Below, piece after piece: positions 1 through 9,662 of a stretch of 64,000 nt of DNA (positions are counted from its first letter, which is position 1; each line of letters starts with the position of its first letter). Below the pieces are notes generated by a model that searched no databases, was not told the origin of the DNA, and saw only the letters and a program-made list of their open reading frames with translations. The translations under genes were made by a program, and so were the position numbers. The DNA is from Lysobacteraceae bacterium. Lineage in GTDB: Bacteria; Pseudomonadota; Gammaproteobacteria; Xanthomonadales; Xanthomonadaceae. Where the stretch lies: positions 26,204 to 90,203 of the forward strand of contig JAGWUF010000001.1 in assembly GCA_028868545.1 (NCBI GenBank). Reading direction: 5' to 3'.

Positions 1-632
1 GGCTGCGCGGCCCGGTTGGCACCGCGATCGAGCTGCTGGCCGGCATCCCCTCGATCATCTACGGCATGTGGGGCTTTTTCATCCTGATGCCGGTGATGCG
101 CGAGCTGCTGATCCCGTGGATGGACGAACACCTGGGCCCGCTGCCGGTGATCGGTACGCTGTTCCGCGGCCCGCCGATCGGCGCCGGCATGCTGACATCG
201 GGCTTGGTGCTTTCGATCATGGTGATTCCATTCATCGCCTCGACCATGCGCGAGGTGTTCCTGACCGTGCCGACCCGGCTGAAAGAGTCGGCCTACGCGC
301 TGGGTGCCACCAAATGGGAAGTGAGTTGGGACATCGTGCTGCCCTACACCCGTTCGGCGGTGATCGGCGGCGTGTTCCTCGGCCTTGGCCGCGCATTGGG
401 TGAAACCATGGCGGTGGCCTTCGTGATCGGCAACAGCGTGACCTTCACCGCCTCGCTGCTGGAGCCTTCCACCACCATCGCCGCACTGATCGCCAACGAC
501 TTCGGCGAAGCCACCGAAACCTATCGCTCCGCGTTGTTGTTGCTGGGCTTCGTGCTGTTCATGGTCACCTTCGTGGTGCTGGCGCTGGCACGCATGATGC
601 TCAGCAGCCTGGCGCGCAAGGAGGGCAACTGA
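1..632 (+). CDS. pstC: Phosphate ABC transporter permease PstC (5'-truncated by window edge)
   Basis: Frame is open from the window start (ELLAGIPSIIYG...); EAA-loop-like segment LKESAYALGAT and GRALGETMAV motif; stop overlaps the pstA start. Confidence 0.95.
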   Translation, partial: LRGPVGTAIELLAGIPSIIYGMWGFFILMPVMRELLIPWMDEHLGPLPVIGTLFRGPPIGAGMLTSGLVLSIMVIPFIASTMREVFLTVPTRLKESAYALGATKWEVSWDIVLPYTRSAVIGGVFLGLGRALGETMAVAFVIGNSVTFTASLLEPSTTIAALIANDFGEATETYRSALLLLGFVLFMVTFVVLALARMMLSSLARKEGN

Positions 633-1495
633 TGAACACCGCATCCGCATCCTTGCTGCGTCGCCGGAAACTGGTCAATGCCGTTGCGACCACGCTGGCC
701 TCTGCCGCCGCCGTGTTCGGGCTGCTGTTCCTCGGCTGGATCCTGTGGACGCTGGTGGCCAAGGGCATTGGCCACTTGAATCTGGCCCTGCTCATCCAGG
801 ATCAGCCCGCACCGATGGAATCCGGCGGCCTGCGCAATGCCATCGTCGGCAGCCTGCTGATGTGCGGCATCGGCGTGCTGATCGGCACCCCGCTGGGGAT
901 TGCCGCCGGCACCTGGCTGGCCGAAGTGGGCGGACACAGCCGGCTGGGGCTGGCGGTACGCTTCGTCAACGACATCCTGATGTCGGCGCCGTCGATCGTG
1001 CTGGGCCTGTTCGTGTATGCCGCCTTCGTGATGAACACCAACGGCAAGTTCTCGGCGTTCGCCGGCGGGCTGTCGCTGGCCTTCATCGTGTTGCCGGTGG
1101 TGGTTCGCACCACCGACGAAATGCTGCAGCTGGTGCCGGTACAGATGCGCGAAGCGGCGTTGTCGCTGGGCGTGCCGCAATGGAAGGTGACCTTGCAGGT
1201 GCTGTATCGCAGCGCCCTGCCCGGCATCGTCACCGGCATCCTGCTGGCGCTGGCACGCATCAGTGGCGAAACCGCGCCACTGCTGTTCACCGCCTTCGGC
1301 AACGAATTTTTCAGCCTCGACATCACCGGCGCCATGAGTGCGGTGCCGCTGACCATGTACAAATTCGCCGGCTCCGGCTTCGAAAACTGGGAACAGCTGG
1401 CCTGGGCCGGCGCCCTGCTGATCACCTTGTTCGTGCTGGCCATCAGCCTGCTGGCCCGTGCCATCCTCCTGCGCAATCGCGTTACCCATGAATGA
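632..1495 (+). CDS. pstA: Phosphate ABC transporter permease PstA
   Basis: Hydrophobic permease with [19 protein letters not shown] and [13 protein letters not shown] motifs; lies between pstC and pstB. Confidence 0.95.
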
Positions 1496-2327
1496 CTTCC
1501 GGACCATTCCGATGCATGACGCCCATTTCAACACCGTGCACGCGCTGCAAGATGCCGCCACGGCCACCCCACCACCCGTGAAGCTGTCCGCACGCGGCCT
1601 GAATTTCTGGTACGACAAGTTCCATGCGGTGAAGAACATCGACCTGGATGTGCCCGAGAAACGCGTGACCGCGCTGATCGGCCCGTCCGGCTGCGGCAAG
1701 TCCACCCTGCTGCGCGTGTTCAACCGCATCTATGCCCTGTACCCGAAGCTGGTCGCCACCGGCGATATCCGGCTGGATGGCGAAAACATCCTGGCCCCGG
1801 ACTATTCCGTGAACCGCCTGCGCAGCAAGGTCGGCATGGTGTTCCAGAAGCCGGTACCGTTCCCGATGACCATCTACGAAAACGTGGCCTACGGCATTCG
1901 TCATCACGAAAGATTGTCGAAGGCGGAGATGGATGCGCGGGTGGAGGAGGCACTGCGTCAGGCAGCGCTGTGGGACGAAGTGAAGGACAAGCTGAAAGAC
2001 AGCGGGCTGGGCCTGTCCGGCGGCCAGCAGCAGCGCCTGTGCATCGCCCGTGCGGTGGCACTCAAGCCGGACGTGCTGTTGCTGGACGAACCCACTTCGG
2101 CGCTGGATCCGATTTCCACCGGCCGGATCGAACAACTGATCGAAGATCTCAAGCAGTCGTTCACCATCATGATCGTCACCCACAACATGCAGCAGGCCGC
2201 ACGCGTGTCCGATTACACCGCCTTCATGTACCTGGGCGATCTGATCGAACACGGCGCCACCGAGCAGATTTTCTCCACCCCGGTCAAGCAGCAGACCGAG
2301 GACTACATCACCGGGAGGTTCGGCTGA
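1488..2327 (+). CDS. pstB: Phosphate ABC transporter ATP-binding protein PstB
   Basis: Walker [10 protein letters not shown], signature [14 protein letters not shown], Walker [13 protein letters not shown]-terminal [10 protein letters not shown]. Start could be 1488 or 1512. Confidence 0.96.
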
Positions 2328-3031
2328 TGAACGAACAGCACAATCACATCGTCAAAAGCCACGACGAAGAACAGACTGCCCTGCGCGACAGCCTGATCCG
2401 CATGGGGCAGCTGGCGGCCAGCCAGCTGGATGCAGCGCTGGATGCGGTGGCCCGCCGCGACGAGGCGGCCGCGCGCCGGATCATCGCCGCCGACGATGCC
2501 ATCGATCAGCTGGAGCAGCAGATCAACCACGACGTGATCCGCCTGATCCAGCGCGGCCCGCTGGCCAGCGACCTGCGCGTCATCCTCGCCGGCTTGCGCG
2601 TGGCCTCGGACATCGAACGCGTCGGCGATTATGCGGCGAACATCGCCAAGCGCTCGCTGGTGCTGAACCAGTCGCCGCCGCTGGCACAGACCCGCGGACT
2701 GAATGCGCTCGGCCGGTTGGCGGCGCAGCAGTTGCGCGATGTCCTGCAGGCCTATCTGCAGCGCGACGGCGAGGCCGCCCAACACGTGCGGGAGCGCGAT
2801 GCCGAGCTGGACACGCTCTACACCGGCATGTTCCGCGAACTTTTGACTTACATGATGGAAGACCCGCGCGCCATCACTGTCTGCACCCACCTGCTGTTCA
2901 TGGCCAAGAACCTGGAGCGCATCGGCGACCACGCCACCAATATCGCGGAAAACCTGTGGTTCCTGCTGCATGGCGATGCCCCCCTGCCGCCGCGCGACAA
3001 ACGCGACGACAGTTCGGCCGCTTCCAGCTGA
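2327..3031 (+). CDS. phoU: Phosphate signalling regulator PhoU
   Basis: Two PhoU repeats (DIERVGDYAANIA; NLERIGDHATNIAE); ATG overlaps the pstB TGA. Confidence 0.95.
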   Translation: MNEQHNHIVKSHDEEQTALRDSLIRMGQLAASQLDAALDAVARRDEAAARRIIAADDAIDQLEQQINHDVIRLIQRGPLASDLRVILAGLRVASDIERVGDYAANIAKRSLVLNQSPPLAQTRGLNALGRLAAQQLRDVLQAYLQRDGEAAQHVRERDAELDTLYTGMFRELLTYMMEDPRAITVCTHLLFMAKNLERIGDHATNIAENLWFLLHGDAPLPPRDKRDDSSAASS

Positions 3032-3037
3032 ATGCAG

Positions 3038-3091
3038 AACCCGCCGGGAATCGCGTCGCATCCGTTGGCGGGTTAGGATGGGCTTTCATCC
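3038..3091 (+). other. Two adjacent inverted repeats between phoU and the RiPP precursor gene
   Basis: AACCCGCC (3038-3045) pairs with GGCGGGTT (3067-3074); GGATG (3076-3080) pairs with CATCC (3087-3091). No U-tract follows. Confidence 0.5.
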
Positions 3092-3109
3092 CGACCCGCG
3101 AGGCAACCC

Positions 3110-3547
3110 ATGGCACAGCCCAACAAACCCTCTCTTCCGCTGATGCTGGCCGGTGCGGCCGTGGCGGCGGGTGCACTGTTCTCGATGCAGGCAATGGCGC
3201 ACGGCTATCTGCAGGACAGCGGCCAGGCCAAGCCCACCGCCAGCGAAGGCAAGTGCGGCGAAGGCAAATGCGGGGCGGGAATGAAGCAAGGCAAGGCACC
3301 GGCGAAGAACGCCAATGCCCCGGCTGCGCATCACGCATTCGGTGACCTCGACACCGACAAGGACGGCCGCATCTCGCGCAGCGAATTCGCCGCCGCGCAC
3401 GGCGGCAAGGACACCATGTTCCCGAAGATCGACAGCAATGGCGACGGCTTCATCAGCAAGGAAGAATTCGATGCCCACCATGCCGCCATGGGCAAGGCCA
3501 TGAGCGAAGGCAAATGCGGCGAGGGCAAGTGCGGCGGCAAGATGTAA
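3110..3547 (+). CDS. Secreted HvfA-like RiPP precursor (four EGKCG motifs) containing two EF-hand loops
   Basis: Signal peptide ending AMA; SEGKCGEGKCG near both ends; EF-hand loops DTDKDGRISRSE and DSNGDGFISKEE; directly upstream of DUF692 and DUF2063 genes. Confidence 0.85.
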   Translation: MAQPNKPSLPLMLAGAAVAAGALFSMQAMAHGYLQDSGQAKPTASEGKCGEGKCGAGMKQGKAPAKNANAPAAHHAFGDLDTDKDGRISRSEFAAAHGGKDTMFPKIDSNGDGFISKEEFDAHHAAMGKAMSEGKCGEGKCGGKM

Positions 3548-3553
3548 GCCGGC

Positions 3554-4378
3554 ATGGTTGAACCGCTGCCCCAGCGCAGCGCGGGCTTGGGCCTGCGCCG
3601 TGCGCTGCTGGATGAATTGATCGGGGCGCCTGCGGGCGCCTTCGATTTTCTGGAATGCGCGCCGGACAACTGGATCGGCGTCGGTGGCGCGCTCGGCGAG
3701 CAGCTGGAAACGCTGACGGCGCGGTATCCGCTCAGCTGCCACGGCCTGTCGCTGTCGCTGGGCGGCCCCGACCCGCTGGATCAGGCGTTCCTGCGCCAGA
3801 CCCGCGACTTCCTCGACCGCCACCGCTGCGCGCTCTACAGCGAACACCTGAGCTACTGTTCCGCCAACGGCCATCTCTACGACCTGCTGCCGCTGCCGTT
3901 CACCGACGAAGCGGTGACGCACGTCGCCGCACGCATCCGCCAGGTGCAGGACGCGCTGGGCCGCCGGATCGCGGTGGAAAACGTCAGCTACTACGCCGCG
4001 CCCTACCAGCAACTGTCCGAAATCGATTTCGTCGCTGCGGTGCTGGCCGAAGCCGGCTGCGACCTGCTGCTGGACGTGAACAACGTCTACGTCAACGCGA
4101 TCAACCACGGCTACGACGCGCGCGCCTTCATCAAGGCGATGCCGACGCAGCGCATCGCCAGCTACCACGTTGCCGGCCACTTCGACGAAGCCGACGACCT
4201 CAAGATCGACACCCACGGCACGGCGGTGAAGGACGACGTGTGGTCGCTGCTCGGCTACGCCTACGCCAGCCACGGCGTGCGCCCCACCCTGCTGGAACGC
4301 GACTTCAACTTCCCGCCGCTGCCGGTGCTGCTGGACGAAGTGGCGCGCATCCGCGCGCTGCAGGCGGCAGCGCCATGA
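3554..4378 (+). CDS. DUF692-family multinuclear non-heme iron oxidase (MNIO, HvfB/BufB-like)
   Basis: GLGLRR start, [57 protein letters not shown] and LLERD are all characteristic of DUF692. Confidence 0.93.
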
Positions 4379-5124
4379 GCGCGCTGCACGATCAGCTGCA
4401 CGCGCTGGCCGCGCACGTGCGCGACCCGGTCGCGCACGCCGGCCCGCCCGGCATCGAGGATCGGCGGCTGGCGGTCTATCGCGAGCTGGTGGCCAACAAC
4501 CTCGACGGCCTGCTGGCCGGCACCTTCCCGGTGATCCGCAGGACTCTGGGCGATGCCGACTGGCAGGCGCTGCTGCACCGCTTCCTCGTCGGCCACCGCA
4601 GCGAAACCCCGCTGTTCACCCGGCTGGGATTGGAGTTCATCGCCTTCCTCGAAGCCGCGGAAGAGCCCGCGCGGCCGTGGCTGACCGAGCTGGCGCATTA
4701 CGAATGGGCCGAGCTGGGCCTGCAGCTCAGCGATGCCGCGGCACCGCCGCACGTTCCCGACGGCGACCTGCTCGACGGCGTGCCGCTGCTGTCGCCGCTG
4801 GCCTGGCCGCTGGCCTACGTCTGGCCGGTGCACCGGCTCGGCCCGGACTGCCAGCCCGCCGAACCGCCGCCCGTTCCGACGCTGGTGCTGCTGCGCCGCG
4901 ATCCTGGCGGCCGCGTCCATTTCTCGCTGCTGTCGCCGCTGCTGTACCGGCTGCTGGCGCTGATTGGTGCCGACGACGGGCGCAGCGGCCACGCGCTGCT
5001 GCGCCAGCTGGCGGAGGAAGTCGGCCACCCGGATTTCGACGCGTTCCTCGGCGAAGCACTGCCGATGCTGGAACGGCTGCGCGCCGAGGGCGTGCTGCCG
5101 GGCACCGCGCCGCCGACGCGCTGA
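4375..5124 (+). CDS. DUF2063-family MNIO partner protein (HvfC/BufC-like)
   Basis: [13 protein letters not shown]...FPVIRRTLG and [10 protein letters not shown] motifs; ATGA overlap with the DUF692 stop. Confidence 0.88.
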
Positions 5125-5165
5125 AAGCGATGTGGGCCAGCAGGCCGCTCTGCTAGGCTTTGCCG

Positions 5166-5858
5166 ATGACCGATACGCAAGATGTACCCGCCTTCGCGGC
5201 GATGGCCGCGCGCTTCCGCGGCTACCTGCCGGTAGTGGTGGATGTGGAAACCGGCGGCTTCGACTGGAACAAGCACGCCCTGCTGGAAATCGCGGCGATT
5301 CCGCTTGAACTGGATGCGGCCGGCCACTACGTGCCGGGCGAAGTCGCGCACGCGCACATCGCCCCCGCGCCCGGCACCAGCATCGACCCGAAGTCGCTGG
5401 AGGTCACCGGCATCAAGATCGGCCATCCGCTGCGCGGCGAGGTGGACGAGCGCAGCGGGCTGGACGCGATCTTCGTGCCGGTGCGCGCGGCGCTGAAGAA
5501 GCACGGCTGCCAGCGCGCCATCCTGGTGGGCCACAACGCCCACTTCGACCTCAACTTCCTCAACGCCGCGGTCGCTCGCGTGCAGCACAAGCGCAACCCG
5601 TTCCACCCGTTCAGCGTGTTCGACACGGTGACGATGGCCGGCCTGGCCTACGGCCAGACCGTGCTGGCACGCGCGGCGATGGCTGCCGGGCTGGGCTGGG
5701 ACCCCAGCCAGGCGCACTCGGCGGTGTACGACACCGAACAGACCGCGAAGTTGTTCTGTGCGATCGCAAATGCATGGCATAGGCCAAATCCCGCAGCGCA
5801 GGGCGGTTCGTCCGCATCGAGCGCGGGGACAATCGGCGCCATGGATGGCGCCGATTAG
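5166..5858 (+). CDS. rnt: Ribonuclease T (DEDDh exoribonuclease) with an atypical C-terminal tail
   Basis: [37 protein letters not shown] and [12 protein letters not shown] motifs. About 25 extra residues follow the NAW terminus I would expect. Confidence 0.95.
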
Positions 5859-5924: not shown

Positions 5925-6194
5925 TCACGCCTGCTTCGCCTGTGATTTCGTCCTGAGCGTCCGCACGATTCCGTAGGCGCTGATCGCCATCCACACGGCT
6001 TCCAGCACGAACACCGACACGTTGAACTTGCCCAGCAGCGACACCAGCACGCCACCGGAACCGAATAGGTTCAGCAACTGATAGACGATGCCGGTGCCGG
6101 ACAGCTTGCCGGCCTGCAGCAGGAAGAACGCCACCAGCACCGCCAGCGTGCCGGCGATGCCTACCCAGTCGTACCACGCCAGATTCAACGCCAT
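5925..6194 (-). CDS. Small three-helix membrane protein (CBU_0592-like)
   Basis: MALNLAWYDWVGIAG..., 89 aa with three hydrophobic segments and a YQLLNLFGS motif; ATG overlaps the rlmB stop. Confidence 0.7.
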   Translation of the reverse strand: MALNLAWYDWVGIAGTLAVLVAFFLLQAGKLSGTGIVYQLLNLFGSGGVLVSLLGKFNVSVFVLEAVWMAISAYGIVRTLRTKSQAKQA

Positions 6195-7091: not shown

Positions 7092-9503
7092 TCAGTACTT
7101 CTGCTTCTGCCGCTTCGCCGGCTTGCCGCGCTCCGGCAGCGCCGGCAGGCCGGCGTCTTCCTCGGCCAGACGGAAGTCGATCTTGCGCTCTTCCACGCTG
7201 GCCTTCAGCACCACGATGCGGACGCGGTCGCCGAGCCGGAACTCGCGGCCGCGGCGTTCGCCGGTGAGCGTCTTGCGCACCGCGTCGAAGTGGTAGAAGT
7301 CGCGCGGCAGCTGGGTGACGTGGACCAGGCCGTTGACCTTGGAATCGTCCAGCTCGACGAACAGACCGAAGCTGGTCACGCCGCTGATGGTGCCGTCGAA
7401 CTCCTTGCCGACGTGGCCTTCCATCCACGCCGCACGGTAGCGCTCGTCGACTTCGCGCTGGGCTTCGTCGGCGCGGCGCGAGCGTTCCGAACATTGCAGC
7501 GACAGGCTGGCCATTTCGTGCGGCGAGTATTCATACGCCTCCGGCCGGCCGCCGGCCAATGCGTGCTTAATCGCGCGGTGCACCAGCAGATCCGGGTAGC
7601 GCCGGATCGGCGAGGTGAAGTGCGCGTAGGCCTCCAGCGCCAGGCCGAAGTGGCCGATGTTGTCCGGCGCATACACCGCCAGCGACTGGCTGCGCAGGAT
7701 CACCGACTCCAGCAGCGCGGCGTCGGGGCGCTCGCGGATCTTCTCCAACAGCGCACGGAAATCCTTCGGCTTCACCTTGCCCCACGGCGGCAGGCGCAGC
7801 GCGAACTCCTTGAGGAATTCCTCCAGATCGGCGTACTTGGACTCCGGCGGCTTGTCGTGGTCGCGGTAGGGCGCGGGGACGCGCGCCTCCAGCAAGTACA
7901 GCGCGGCCTGCACGTTGGCCGCGATCATGCACTCCTCGATCAGCTTGTGGGCGTCGTTGCGCTGGAGCATGCCGGCCTGGGTCACCACGCCCTTGGCGTC
8001 CAGCACGAAGCGCACTTCGCTGCTCTCGAACTCGATCGCGCCACGCTTGGCGCGCGCCCTGTCGAGGACCTTGTACAGCTGGTGCAGGCGCTGCACCTGC
8101 GGCAGCAGCGCGCCGATCTTGGCCAGCGCGGCGTCGTGCTCGTCCTCCGGGATGCCCTCGCCCACCGCGTTCCACACGTCGGTGTAGGTCAGACGCGCGT
8201 GCGAGTGCATCACCGCCTCGTAGAACCGGCTCGACGTGACGATGCCGTCGCGGCCCACCTGCATGTCGCAGCAGAAGCACAGCCGGTCCAGCGCCGGATT
8301 GAGCGAGCAGATGCCGTTGCTCAGCGTCTCCGGCAGCATCGGCACCACGAAACCGGGGAAATACACCGACGTGGCACGCAATTGCGCTTCCTCGTCCAGC
8401 GGCGTTTCCGGCTGCACGTAATGCGACACGTCGGCGATCGCCACGATCAGACGGAAGCCGTCGGCGTTGGGTTCGCACCACACCGCATCATCGAAATCCT
8501 TGGCGTCCTCGCCGTCGATGGTGACCAGCGGCATCGCGCGCAGATCGACGCGCCCGGCGATGTCGGCGGGGGTCACCTGCAATGGGATGGCCGTGGCCTG
8601 GGCCAGTACCTCGGGCGAAAATTCGTGCGGAATGTCGTGGCCGTGGATCGCCGCTTCCACCGCCTGGCTGGCGGTGAGCTTGTCGCCCAGCACCGCCAGC
8701 ACCTTGCCGATCGGTGGCCGGTGCGCATCCTGCGCCGTGGTGATTTCCGCCACCACCAATTGCCCGGTTTTCGCACCGCCGCATGCCTCCTGCGGAATCA
8801 GCACATTGCGCTGGATGCGCTTGTCGTCGGGCACCACGTAGGCCACGCCCAGTTCTTCGGTGTAGCGGCCCAGCAGGCGGGTCAGGCGGCGTTCCAGCAC
8901 TTCGACGATGCTGGCTTCACCACGCCCGCGCCGATCCATGCCGGTGAGGCTGACCAGCACGCGGTCGCCGTGGCTGACCTTGCGCATCTCGTACGGCGGC
9001 AGGAACAAATCGTCGCCGCCGGCCTCCGGACGCAGGAAACCGAAGCCGTCGGGGTTGGCGATCACGCTGCCGGGGATCAGCTCGGCCTGCGCCGCCGGCA
9101 CGTAGCCGCCGCGCCGGTTCTGCAGCAGCTGACCGGCGCGCAGCATCGCGCCGAGGCGTTTTTGCAGCGCCTCGAAGCGGTCGGGCGCGGTCAGCGCCAA
9201 TTTCTGCGCCAGGGCCCGGTCGTCCATCGGGCCATCCTGCGCAGCCAGCACCTGCAGGATCATTTCGCGGCTGGCAATCGGGTGTTCGTAACGCTGCGCC
9301 TCACGCTGCGCGTGCGGATCGAAACGCGGCGCGGTTGGATGCGTGGCCACCGGCTTGCCCTTGCGCGGATGCGCAGGTGCCGGGGAGTCCGGCAACCACC
9401 CCGGCAATTTGCCTGCGCCCTTGCCTGGCTTGTTGCCGACATTGCCGGGACCCGCCCCCTTGCCGCCGCCACTGCTGCCGCGCTTGCTGGAAATTTTCTT
9501 CAT
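7092..9503 (-). CDS. rnr: Ribonuclease R
   Basis: RNB motifs VTIDGEDAKDFDDA, VAIADVSHYV and YAHFTSPIRRYPDL; N-terminal CSD (NPDGFGF) and C-terminal S1 domain. Start chosen at MKKISSKR. Confidence 0.97.
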   Translation of the reverse strand: MKKISSKRGSSGGGKGAGPGNVGNKPGKGAGKLPGWLPDSPAPAHPRKGKPVATHPTAPRFDPHAQREAQRYEHPIASREMILQVLAAQDGPMDDRALAQKLALTAPDRFEALQKRLGAMLRAGQLLQNRRGGYVPAAQAELIPGSVIANPDGFGFLRPEAGGDDLFLPPYEMRKVSHGDRVLVSLTGMDRRGRGEASIVEVLERRLTRLLGRYTEELGVAYVVPDDKRIQRNVLIPQEACGGAKTGQLVVAEITTAQDAHRPPIGKVLAVLGDKLTASQAVEAAIHGHDIPHEFSPEVLAQATAIPLQVTPADIAGRVDLRAMPLVTIDGEDAKDFDDAVWCEPNADGFRLIVAIADVSHYVQPETPLDEEAQLRATSVYFPGFVVPMLPETLSNGICSLNPALDRLCFCCDMQVGRDGIVTSSRFYEAVMHSHARLTYTDVWNAVGEGIPEDEHDAALAKIGALLPQVQRLHQLYKVLDRARAKRGAIEFESSEVRFVLDAKGVVTQAGMLQRNDAHKLIEECMIAANVQAALYLLEARVPAPYRDHDKPPESKYADLEEFLKEFALRLPPWGKVKPKDFRALLEKIRERPDAALLESVILRSQSLAVYAPDNIGHFGLALEAYAHFTSPIRRYPDLLVHRAIKHALAGGRPEAYEYSPHEMASLSLQCSERSRRADEAQREVDERYRAAWMEGHVGKEFDGTISGVTSFGLFVELDDSKVNGLVHVTQLPRDFYHFDAVRKTLTGERRGREFRLGDRVRIVVLKASVEERKIDFRLAEEDAGLPALPERGKPAKRQKQKY

Positions 9504-9532
9504 GCCACGATGGTACAGCCTGCAAAAAACTG

Positions 9533-9561
9533 TTGACAGCACCAGCCTATCCCCGGAAAAT
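9533..9561 (+). promoter_or_regulatory. Sigma70 promoter for tRNA-Leu
   Basis: TTGACA (9533-9538), 17 nt, GAAAAT (9556-9561), then a GC-rich discriminator. Confidence 0.7.
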
Positions 9562-9577
9562 GCGCGGCTCACCACCT

Positions 9578-9662
<85 letters not shown>

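What the first reader, a model, noticed from the sequence alone, without database searches (positions are those of the whole stretch)
3110..5124. MNIO (DUF692) RiPP cassette whose precursor places an EF-hand pair between two EGKCGEGKCG motifs
Seen in sequence: a precursor, a DUF692 gene and a DUF2063 gene are tightly linked. The precursor has a signal peptide, SEGKCGEGKCG at ~3242-3274 and ~3503-3535, two EF-hand loops between them, and His/Met patches (AHHA, AHHAAMG). Established knowledge: in the Haemophilus HvfABC system an MNIO converts the Cys of EGKCG repeats into oxazolone-thioamide groups that bind copper, and Caulobacter bufferin clusters use the same MNIO/DUF2063 gene pair. Inference: this precursor is a folded chimeric scaffold with four modifiable Cys split across the termini of a Ca2+-binding domain, so Ca2+-dependent folding could bring the two metal-binding ends together. 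I do not know of a characterised EF-hand-containing MNIO product.
Basis: partly seen in the sequence, partly recalled or inferred. Interest (0 to 1): 0.75.

Follow-up and report, generated by a model that had tools for sequence, protein, structure and literature searches.

The report
EF-hand copper-peptide precursor with maturase genes
This is a real three-gene cassette for an exported calcium-binding protein whose cysteine repeats are probably turned into copper-binding groups, but proteins of this type are already described (including Pseudomonas aeruginosa EfhP); only the split placement of the repeats looks undescribed.

Summary
Window 3110-3547 encodes a 145-aa precursor: a signal peptide, SEGKCGEGKCG at aa 45-55 and 132-142, and two canonical EF loops (aa 81-92, 108-119). 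An HvfB-type MNIO (3554-4378) and an HvfC partner (4375-5124) follow directly.

The novelty claim does not hold. EGKCG|EF-hand chimaeras next to MNIO/DUF2063 genes were described in 2025 (PMC12452194). P. aeruginosa EfhP, a characterised Ca2+ sensor, belongs to the same family. I retrieved its locus: four EGKCG repeats, the same EF-loop spacing, and neighbours 71% (HvfB) and 52% (HvfC) identical to those here.

The chemistry cited is outdated. HvfA-type products are now assigned 5-thiooxazoles, not oxazolone-thioamides.

One point looks new. In EfhP all four repeats lie N-terminal to the EF pair. Here, and in 119 of 120 close homologues and 52 genome loci (mostly Lysobacteraceae), the repeats flank it. 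I did not find this split arrangement in the papers I read.

AlphaFold2 folds only the EF pair and leaves both repeat tails disordered. The Ca2+-driven "clamp" idea therefore remains untested. Overall this is a minor variant of a known kind, of moderate-to-low interest.

The parts
3074..3079 (+). TAGGAT, a -10-like element 31 nt upstream of the precursor start (candidate own promoter)
   Evidence: TAGGAT or TAGCAT stands at a similar distance upstream of the start in 12 of 13 aligned phoU-hvfA intergenic regions; it is not evident in L015. The consensus scan found no sigma-70 site and no terminator after phoU. This is an inference only.
3100..3103 (+). GAGG ribosome-binding site, 6 nt before the ATG
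   Evidence: Read directly from the sequence.
3110..3547 (+). Precursor gene (HvfA-family, EfhP-like), 145 aa
   Evidence: EF-hand Pfam hits. NF050137 scores 36.1 bits against a cut-off of 19.5. BLASTP to P. aeruginosa EfhP gives 38% identity, E 2e-19.
3110..3199 (+). Predicted Sec signal peptide (aa 1-30: K6, a hydrophobic core, then A-M-A before HG)
   Evidence: Sequence inspection. A28 and A30 are conserved in 105 and 113 of 120 homologues. No SignalP run was available. The literature disagrees on whether this segment is a cleaved signal or a membrane anchor in EfhP-type proteins.
3242..3274 (+). N-side SEGKCGEGKCG (Cys49, Cys54), predicted sites of 5-thiooxazole formation
   Evidence: A double EGKCG repeat is the minimal substrate of the related FonBC enzyme (PMC13097082).
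3350..3385 (+). EF-hand loop 1, DTDKDGRISRSE (aa 81-92)
   Evidence: D81, D83, D85 and S89 are invariant and E92 is present in 119 of 120 homologues. Nine of 12 residues match EfhP loop I.
3431..3466 (+). EF-hand loop 2, DSNGDGFISKEE (aa 108-119)
   Evidence: D108, D112, G113 and E119 are invariant. Nine of 12 residues match EfhP loop II.
3503..3535 (+). C-side SEGKCGEGKCG (Cys136, Cys141), predicted sites of 5-thiooxazole formation
   Evidence: Conserved in at least 112 of 120 homologues. Absent from EfhP.
3554..4378 (+). hvfB, an MNIO (DUF692) maturase, 274 aa
   Evidence: PF05114 scores 1.8e-104. NF003818 scores 427.9 bits against 360. PDB 3BWW matches at 5e-72 with motifs aligned. R15, R16, D250 and F251 match the Lys-Cys-type FonB residues. 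It is the only MNIO gene found in the genome.
4375..5124 (+). hvfC, a DUF2063/NGO1945_C partner protein, 249 aa; its start overlaps the hvfB stop (ATGA)
   Evidence: NF050145 scores 268.1 bits against 142. PDB 3DEE matches at 1.2e-5.

Best explanation
The locus is a minimal hvfABC-type ('captophorin') RiPP cassette. Its precursor belongs to the EfhP / Buf_EGKCG|EF-hand family.

Proposed mechanism:
1. In the cytoplasm, the HvfB-HvfC complex converts the four Cys of the two EGKCGEGKCG units into 5-thiooxazoles (loss of 4 Da per Cys, absorbance near 305 nm).
2. The Sec pathway exports the protein, and the signal peptide is probably cleaved after AMA30.
3. In the periplasm, the central EF-hand pair binds Ca2+ with micromolar affinity and folds, as shown for EfhP.
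4. The two flexible modified tails bind Cu(I).

The result is one protein that couples a Ca2+-responsive domain to copper-binding groups.

Basis of each step:
- Shown here: the gene identities, the motifs, their conservation and their linkage.
- Inferred from characterised relatives: the modification chemistry, export, and Ca2+ and Cu binding.
- Speculative: any cross-talk between the Ca and Cu sites.
For: - Family models for all three genes pass curated cut-offs.
- HvfB keeps the MNIO motifs of PDB 3BWW. It also keeps R15, R16, D250 and F251, the residues that define EGKCG-type specificity in FonB.
- A double EGKCG repeat suffices as substrate for the related FonBC enzyme.
- Cys motifs and maturase genes go together. 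All 52 genome loci whose EF protein has Cys on both sides carry hvfB and hvfC downstream. All 15 Cys-less EF proteins lack them.
- A Thermomonas MAG locus (L025) without hvfBC has also lost every EGKCG motif but keeps the EF pair.
- The P. aeruginosa EfhP locus is homologous: precursor 38% identical, HvfB 71%, HvfC 52%, with identical 15-residue loop spacing.
- EfhP binds Ca2+ with a Kd of 13.7 uM, and mutating loop positions 1 and 12 abolishes binding.
- H. influenzae, N. gonorrhoeae and F. thermophila EGKCG products carry 5-thiooxazoles and bind Cu.
- AlphaFold2 folds residues 75-131 as a calmodulin-lobe-like EF pair.
Against: - No EF-hand member has had its modification demonstrated in the papers I could read.
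- The EfhP laboratory proposes Fe sensing by the unmodified Cys.
- No DoxX gene was found in this genome, which is 96% complete. No copper-homeostasis gene is adjacent; the neighbours are pstB-phoU and rnt.
- Signal peptide versus uncleaved membrane anchor is unresolved.
- Metal specificity is unknown.
Confidence: 0.7

Rival explanations
1. Ca2+-gated copper clamp. Ca2+-dependent folding of the EF pair brings the N-side and C-side thiooxazole pairs together. They then form a shared Cu site, so copper affinity depends on calcium, or calcium affinity on copper.
For: - The split arrangement is strongly conserved (119 of 120 homologues; 52 loci).
- In an EF-hand pair the start of the first helix and the end of the last helix lie at the same pole, away from the loops (established knowledge; not measured here).
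- The C-side repeat starts directly after the exiting helix (helix 117-131).
- In most relatives an EGGCG motif abuts EF loop 1.
- N-side and C-side Cys counts are often equal: 3+3 in 40 and 2+2 in 20 of 120 homologues.
Against: - AlphaFold2 gives both tails pLDDT below 50 and no contact between them.
- EfhP has all repeats on one side, so the family functions without a sandwich.
- In this protein a 25-residue linker separates the N-side pair from loop 1.
- The equal Cys counts come from related sequences, so they are not independent evidence.
Confidence: 0.2
2. Two independent modules. The protein acts mainly as a periplasmic Ca2+ sensor or buffer like EfhP, and the EGKCG tails are a separate copper buffer. 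Alternatively, the EF domain only keeps the otherwise aggregation-prone Cu-loaded peptides soluble. The position of the repeats has no functional meaning.
For: - Repeat number and position vary widely within the family: 1-6 Cys on the N side and 1-9 on the C side.
- EfhP-type and split-type proteins share the same enzymes.
- Lineages without hvfBC keep the EF pair alone (L025 and P0047).
- Cu-loaded EGKCG peptides aggregate in vitro (PMC13097082).
Against: - A C-side pair is conserved almost universally in Lysobacteraceae.
- A Cys or His position directly abuts EF loop 1, which suggests more than a random arrangement.
Confidence: 0.45
3. The Cys motifs are not modified. As free thiols they sense or bind iron or an Fe-S cluster, or they form disulfides. 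This is the hypothesis raised for EfhP.
For: The mBio 2024 paper proposes dual Ca2+/Fe sensing through the four EGKCG Cys of EfhP, and efhP deletion alters iron-uptake regulation.
Against: - The motifs are tightly linked to HvfB and HvfC and are lost together with them.
- All tested EGKCG substrates of HvfB-type enzymes are fully converted to 5-thiooxazoles.
- HvfB here is 71% identical to the EfhP-adjacent enzyme and passes the HvfB equivalog cut-off.
Confidence: 0.08

Closest known systems
Pseudomonas aeruginosa EfhP (PA4107) with PA4106 (DUF692) and PA4105 (DUF2063)
   Same: - N-terminal signal or anchor segment, EGKCGEGKCG units, and two canonical EF loops exactly 15 residues apart.
- The precursor is 38% identical (E 2e-19).
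- The downstream HvfB-family MNIO is 71% identical and the HvfC 52%.
- Both precursors pass NF050137.
   Different: - EfhP has all four EGKCG repeats on the N side (aa 48, 53, 71, 76) and a Cys-free C-terminal tail. Here there are two on each side of the EF pair.
- By my reading of a supplementary table in PMC12452194, the EfhP cluster also has an adjacent DoxX gene. None was found in this genome.
- The genomic neighbourhood differs: here the cassette lies between phoU and rnt.
[quoted passage not shown] 2025, PMC12452194)
   Same: This is the same class: a short EGKCG segment plus two EF-hand_5 domains, encoded upstream of MNIO and DUF2063 genes. The EGKCG part is predicted to be unstructured.
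   Different: The paper describes the EF hands as fused to the C-terminus of an N-terminal EGKCG domain. It does not mention a second EGKCG pair after the EF hands.
Haemophilus influenzae HvfABC (oxazolin); Fontimonas FonABC (fontiphorin); captophorins in general
   Same: - EGKCG repeats and an HvfB-type MNIO with a DUF2063 partner.
- The same specificity residues: R15, R16, D250 and F251 here, R15, R16, D249 and F250 in FonB.
- The expected product chemistry (5-thiooxazole) and Cu(I) binding.
   Different: - Those precursors are pure repeat peptides without a folded domain.
- The HvfA equivalog model is not met (25.7 bits against 95).
- There are only four modifiable Cys here, against six in oxazolin and seven in fontiphorin.
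Bufferins (Buf1 DUF2282, Buf2) with BufBC
   Same: Sec-exported MNIO/DUF2063-modified copper-binding proteins. Their MNIOs fall in the same sequence cluster.
   Different: - The precursor folds and Cys contexts differ.
- The BufB equivalog cut-off is not met (280 bits against 310).

Membership tests
HvfA-family EGKCG precursors (NCBIfam NF050137; Buf_EGKCG/oxazolin; Lys-Cys captophorins) | Tandem E-G-K-C-G repeats, at least two in a row | tested here: met
   NF050137 scores 36.1 bits against a cut-off of 19.5, with two stretches. EGKCGEGKCG occurs at aa 46-55 and 133-142.
HvfA-family EGKCG precursors (NCBIfam NF050137; Buf_EGKCG/oxazolin; Lys-Cys captophorins) | Gene immediately upstream of an MNIO gene and a DUF2063 partner gene | tested here: met
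   A 6-nt gap to hvfB and an ATGA overlap between hvfB and hvfC.
HvfA-family EGKCG precursors (NCBIfam NF050137; Buf_EGKCG/oxazolin; Lys-Cys captophorins) | N-terminal Sec signal peptide | tested here: inconclusive
   The n/h/c regions and an A-x-A site are visible and conserved. No signal-peptide predictor was available, and the literature is split between signal peptide and membrane helix.
HvfA-family EGKCG precursors (NCBIfam NF050137; Buf_EGKCG/oxazolin; Lys-Cys captophorins) | Cys converted to 5-thiooxazole; product binds Cu(I) | not testable with these tools
   Needs co-expression, mass spectrometry, UV and NMR.
HvfA proper (equivalog NF050188, H. influenzae oxazolin) | Score over the equivalog cut-off | tested here: not met
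   25.7 bits against a cut-off of 95. It is a family member but not an HvfA orthologue.
HvfB-family MNIO maturase (NF003818; Pfam PF05114) | Equivalog score; conserved metal-binding and catalytic motifs; EGKCG-specificity residues | tested here: met
   427.9 bits against 360. The HG, EH, EN, DxxN, HxxxH, DxH and ERDF motifs align with PDB 3BWW. R15, R16, D250 and F251 correspond to FonB R15, R16, D249 and F250.
HvfC-family partner (NF050145; DUF2063 + NGO1945_C) | Equivalog score; two-domain architecture | tested here: met
   268.1 bits against 142. PF09836 covers aa 9-92 and PF22106 aa 140-236.
EfhP-type Buf_EGKCG|EF-hand_5 chimaera | Two canonical 12-residue EF loops (D1, D/N3, D5, G6, S9, E12) forming a pair | tested here: met
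   Pfam EF-hand_5, EF-hand_1, EF-hand_7 and EF-hand_6 all score over their cut-offs. The loops at aa 81-92 and 108-119 have the same 15-residue spacing as EfhP loops 88-99 and 115-126. The AlphaFold2 EF pair has pLDDT about 90.
EfhP-type Buf_EGKCG|EF-hand_5 chimaera | Sequence homology to EfhP along the whole length | tested here: met
   BLASTP gives 38% identity over 136 columns, E 2e-19.
EfhP-type Buf_EGKCG|EF-hand_5 chimaera | As described in the literature: all EGKCG repeats N-terminal, with the EF hands at the C-terminus | tested here: not met
   Here there are two repeats N-terminal and two C-terminal. EfhP has its repeats at aa 48, 53, 71 and 76 and none after the EF hands.
EfhP-type Buf_EGKCG|EF-hand_5 chimaera | Micromolar Ca2+ binding with a conformational change | not testable with these tools
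   Shown only for EfhP.
Lanmodulin (NF053806) and XopAW (NF041410) | Score over the curated cut-off | tested here: not met
   LanM scores 21.1 bits against 135 and XopAW 42.5 against 120. This is generic EF-hand similarity only.
Bufferin system (BufB NF050167) | Equivalog score of the MNIO | tested here: not met
   280.1 bits against a cut-off of 310.

The most novel reading that the evidence does not exclude
The split arrangement is functional rather than incidental. Thiooxazole pairs on both ends of a Ca2+-switched EF-hand pair would form a Cu(I) site shared between the termini, assisted by the conserved His97, His123, His124 and Met127 and by the Cys-or-His position abutting loop 1. This would give a periplasmic protein whose copper binding is gated by calcium, or calcium binding by copper. 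Such coupling is not known for any RiPP-derived metallophore.
Probability: 0.15. Interest if true: 0.7.

Novelty: new variant of a known kind. Interest (0 to 1): 0.35.

Why it matters
The locus adds nothing categorically new. It belongs to the widespread HvfABC/captophorin systems and to the EF-hand subgroup already catalogued.

Two points could still be useful to specialists:
- **EfhP and the RiPP literature.** EfhP, a virulence-linked Ca2+ sensor of P. aeruginosa, has so far been studied as an unmodified recombinant protein. It and its relatives sit next to maturases that almost certainly modify their Cys. The environmental relatives show that Cys motifs and maturase are kept and lost together, which argues that published EfhP biochemistry may be missing the native modification.
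- **A natural comparison.** The split-repeat form that dominates in Lysobacteraceae can be compared with the all-N-terminal EfhP form to test whether calcium and copper binding are coupled.

Tried and rejected
- **Whole-library phmmer with the precursor.** The list was dominated by long multi-EF-hand proteins and added only about 20 short family members. It was not useful for a census.
- **NF050137 over the 14 control genomes.** No hits. P. aeruginosa apparently is not among the controls; PF05114 rang only in Caulobacter. This route could not reach EfhP.
- **Supplement of PMC9132961 searched for EGKCG strings.** Nothing found.
- **Cluster look-up of 10 representatives.** It named only Luteimonas and Pseudoxanthomonas.
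- **Genome-contig scan.** The best 80 loci did not include Pseudomonas. EfhP was finally reached through a degenerate DNA pattern of its published loop I in metagenome contigs.
- **Promoter and terminator scan and RNA fold of the phoU-hvfA spacer.** No consensus sigma-70 site and no terminator. The fold was no better than shuffled sequence (z -0.14).
- **Lanmodulin-like or XopAW-like identity.** Rejected, because both scores are far below their cut-offs.
- **Distance between the domain's termini.** I could not measure it, because model coordinates are not returned by the tool.
Full report
**1. Observation**

The ORF at window 3110-3547 (+) encodes a 145-aa protein. Its parts are:
- an N-terminal signal-like segment: K6, a hydrophobic core, then A-M-A before HG at aa 28-32;
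- SEGKCGEGKCG at aa 45-55 (nt 3242-3274) and again at aa 132-142 (nt 3503-3535);
- two 12-residue EF loops, DTDKDGRISRSE (aa 81-92) and DSNGDGFISKEE (aa 108-119);
- AHHA at aa 73 and aa 122.

The two repeat-coding DNA segments are 29/33 identical, and all four differences are synonymous. The next gene (3554-4378) starts 6 nt after the stop. The third gene (4375-5124) overlaps the second by ATGA.

**2. Identity of the three genes**

- **Precursor.** Pfam finds EF-hand_5 (1.7e-13) and three further EF-hand models over their cut-offs. NCBIfam's HvfA-family domain model NF050137 scores 36.1 bits against 19.5 and matches both repeat units. The H. influenzae HvfA equivalog model is not met (25.7 against 95).
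- **Gene 2.** PF05114 scores 1.8e-104, and the HvfB equivalog 427.9 bits against 360. It matches the Haemophilus-type DUF692 structure 3BWW at 5e-72 with the metal-binding motifs aligned. It has R15, R16, D250 and F251, the positions that mark EGKCG-type substrate specificity and the catalytic base in FonB.
- **Gene 3.** DUF2063 plus NGO1945_C, and the HvfC equivalog at 268.1 bits against 142.
- **Genome context.** The genome is a 2.65-Mb, 96%-complete assembly whose closest relatives are named Thermomonas. This is its only MNIO gene, and no DoxX gene was found.

**3. How common is the architecture?**

- A word-indexed search found 1072 related protein clusters. Of the best 120, 119 have two EF loops with Cys motifs on both sides.
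- The most frequent Cys counts (N side + C side) are 3+3 (40 proteins), 2+2 (20) and 3+2 (18).
- Invariant or nearly invariant positions are G32-Y33 just after the predicted cleavage site, the Ca2+-ligand positions of both loops, H97, H123, H124 and M127, and the EGKCG units.
- In a sample of the same taxonomic family, 77 of 201 genomes (33 of 64 genera, 5 of 5 in the own genus) have a match at E <= 1e-8.
- In 80 named genome loci, the order pstB-phoU-precursor-hvfB-hvfC-rnt recurs through Thermomonas, Pseudoxanthomonas, Luteimonas, Lysobacter and Vulcaniibacterium.
- All 52 loci whose EF protein has Cys on both sides have hvfB and hvfC downstream. The 15 Cys-less EF proteins have neither.
- One Thermomonas MAG locus (L025) lacks hvfBC, with rnt following directly. 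Its protein has lost every EGKCG motif but keeps the EF pair and the DAHHAAM helix. This natural co-loss ties the Cys motifs to the maturase.

**4. What is already known**

- Leprevost et al. 2025 (PMC12452194) built a Buf_EGKCG/oxazolin profile. [quoted passage not shown] They suggest roles in Cu and Ca2+ homeostasis and cite EfhP.
- Sarkisova et al. 2014 (PMC4053335) noted that efhP (PA4107) appears to be in an operon with PA4106 (DUF692) and PA4105 (DUF2063).
- Kayastha et al. 2022 (PMC9132961) measured Ca2+ binding (Kd 13.7 uM). They showed that loop positions 1 and 12 are required and that the protein is probably periplasmic.
- Burch-Konda et al. 2024 (PMC11559002) mention four EGKCG repeats in EfhP and propose Fe sensing.
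- The modification in oxazolin (HvfA) has been revised to 5-thiooxazole and the class named captophorins (PMC13097082). The Rosenzweig laboratory now also writes 5-thiooxazole.
- A double EGKCG repeat is the minimal substrate for FonBC.

**5. Direct comparison with EfhP**

I retrieved P. aeruginosa-type efhP loci from metagenome contigs using a degenerate DNA pattern of the published loop I.
- The 155-aa protein (L086:2429-2896) has loops at aa 88 and aa 115, as published.
- Its EGKCG repeats are at aa 48, 53, 71 and 76, and its C-terminal tail has no Cys.
- The downstream genes are 71% (HvfB) and 52% (HvfC) identical to those of the window.
- They pass the same NCBIfam models.
- BLASTP between the two precursors gives 38% identity, E 2e-19.

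The window's protein is therefore a homologue of EfhP with a different repeat placement. The second N-side pair of EfhP aligns with a region where most Lysobacteraceae proteins keep one 'HEGGCG' motif abutting loop 1. This protein has AAHHAF there, and 17 of 120 homologues have His in the Cys column. A new pair sits after the last helix.

**6. Structure**

AlphaFold2 with a 50-sequence alignment gives a confident EF pair (residues about 75-131, pLDDT 87-93; helices 77-80, 90-97, 101-107 and 117-131). Both EGKCG segments are disordered, with pLDDT below 50. Foldseek's best matches are calmodulin lobes and polcalcins, with TM-score up to 0.7 on the target. The entering helix of EF1 is very short. 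The loops are 15 residues apart, against 24 in calmodulin.

**7. Mechanism**

The best-supported reading has four steps:
1. HvfBC makes 5-thiooxazoles on the four Cys in the cytoplasm.
2. The protein is exported by the Sec pathway.
3. The EF pair binds Ca2+ in the periplasm.
4. The modified tails bind Cu(I).

The gene identities and linkage are shown here. The chemistry and metal binding are inferred from relatives. However, no result here supports it, and EfhP works with all repeats on one side. I give the clamp idea about 0.2.

**8. Regulation and context**

No terminator follows phoU, and no consensus sigma-70 promoter was found. A TAGGAT or TAGCAT element stands upstream of the start in nearly all aligned intergenic regions (31 nt upstream here), which suggests the cassette has its own promoter. 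The constant position next to pst-phoU may only reflect vertical inheritance. Dokdonella, Thiothrix and Pseudomonas loci lack it.

**9. Verdict**

The claimed novelty is largely removed by the 2014-2025 literature. What remains is a conserved sub-architecture (repeats flanking the EF pair) that I did not find described, and no EF-hand member has yet been shown to be modified.

Noticed in passing
window 1-5858, and loci L005-L058: The order pstB-phoU-precursor-hvfB-hvfC-rnt is conserved across Thermomonas, Pseudoxanthomonas, Luteimonas, Lysobacter and Vulcaniibacterium. The cassette always sits directly after the phosphate-transport operon. Whether this reflects phosphate-linked regulation or only inheritance is unknown.
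   Followed up: partly
window 3074-3079; the same position in L005-L019: A conserved TAGGAT or TAGCAT element lies roughly 30-75 nt upstream of the precursor start (31 nt here) in nearly all aligned intergenic regions. In several Thermomonas loci a CTGGCC motif lies about 18 nt further upstream. This is a possible dedicated promoter.
   Followed up: partly
L025:4001-4351 (Thermomonas sp. MAG D1-2020); also protein P0047: L025 lacks hvfB and hvfC, with rnt following directly. Its EF-hand protein has lost all EGKCG motifs but keeps both EF loops and the DAHHAAM helix. P0047 likewise has no Cys. The EF module seems to be kept for its own sake.
   Followed up: partly
window 3326-3340 (aa 73-77, AHHAF): Most homologues have 'HEGGCGM', a third N-side Cys, directly before EF loop 1. 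Here the Cys column holds His, as in 17 of 120 homologues. This hints at a metal-ligand position next to the Ca2+ site.
   Followed up: no
window 3203-3208 (aa 32-33, G-Y): G32 and Y33, just after the predicted signal-peptide cleavage site, are invariant in the alignments. EfhP has GQGLQ at this place. This could be the recognition element for HvfC or for export.
   Followed up: no
window 3386-3430: The two EF loops are only 15 residues apart (24 in calmodulin), exactly as in EfhP, and the entering helix of EF1 is reduced to about 4 residues in the model. The pair is unusually compact.
   Followed up: partly
window 3242-3274 vs 3503-3535: The two repeat-coding segments are 29/33 nt identical and all four differences are synonymous. 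This fits a recent duplication, gene conversion, or strong codon constraint.
   Followed up: no
window 5925-6170 (-): A small hydrophobic ORF of roughly 85-90 aa (from the internal 'MALNLAWYDW...' start) lies between rnt and the rlmB-like gene, followed by an RNase R-like gene at 7092-9605 (-). I did not examine it.
   Followed up: no
supplementary table of PMC12452194: In PAO1 the authors' Buf_EGKCG profile flagged one protein (NP_251974.1), which sits next to a different MNIO/DUF2063/DoxX set. It apparently did not flag EfhP, although EfhP passes NCBIfam NF050137. The mapping of accession numbers to PA numbers is my inference.
   Followed up: partly
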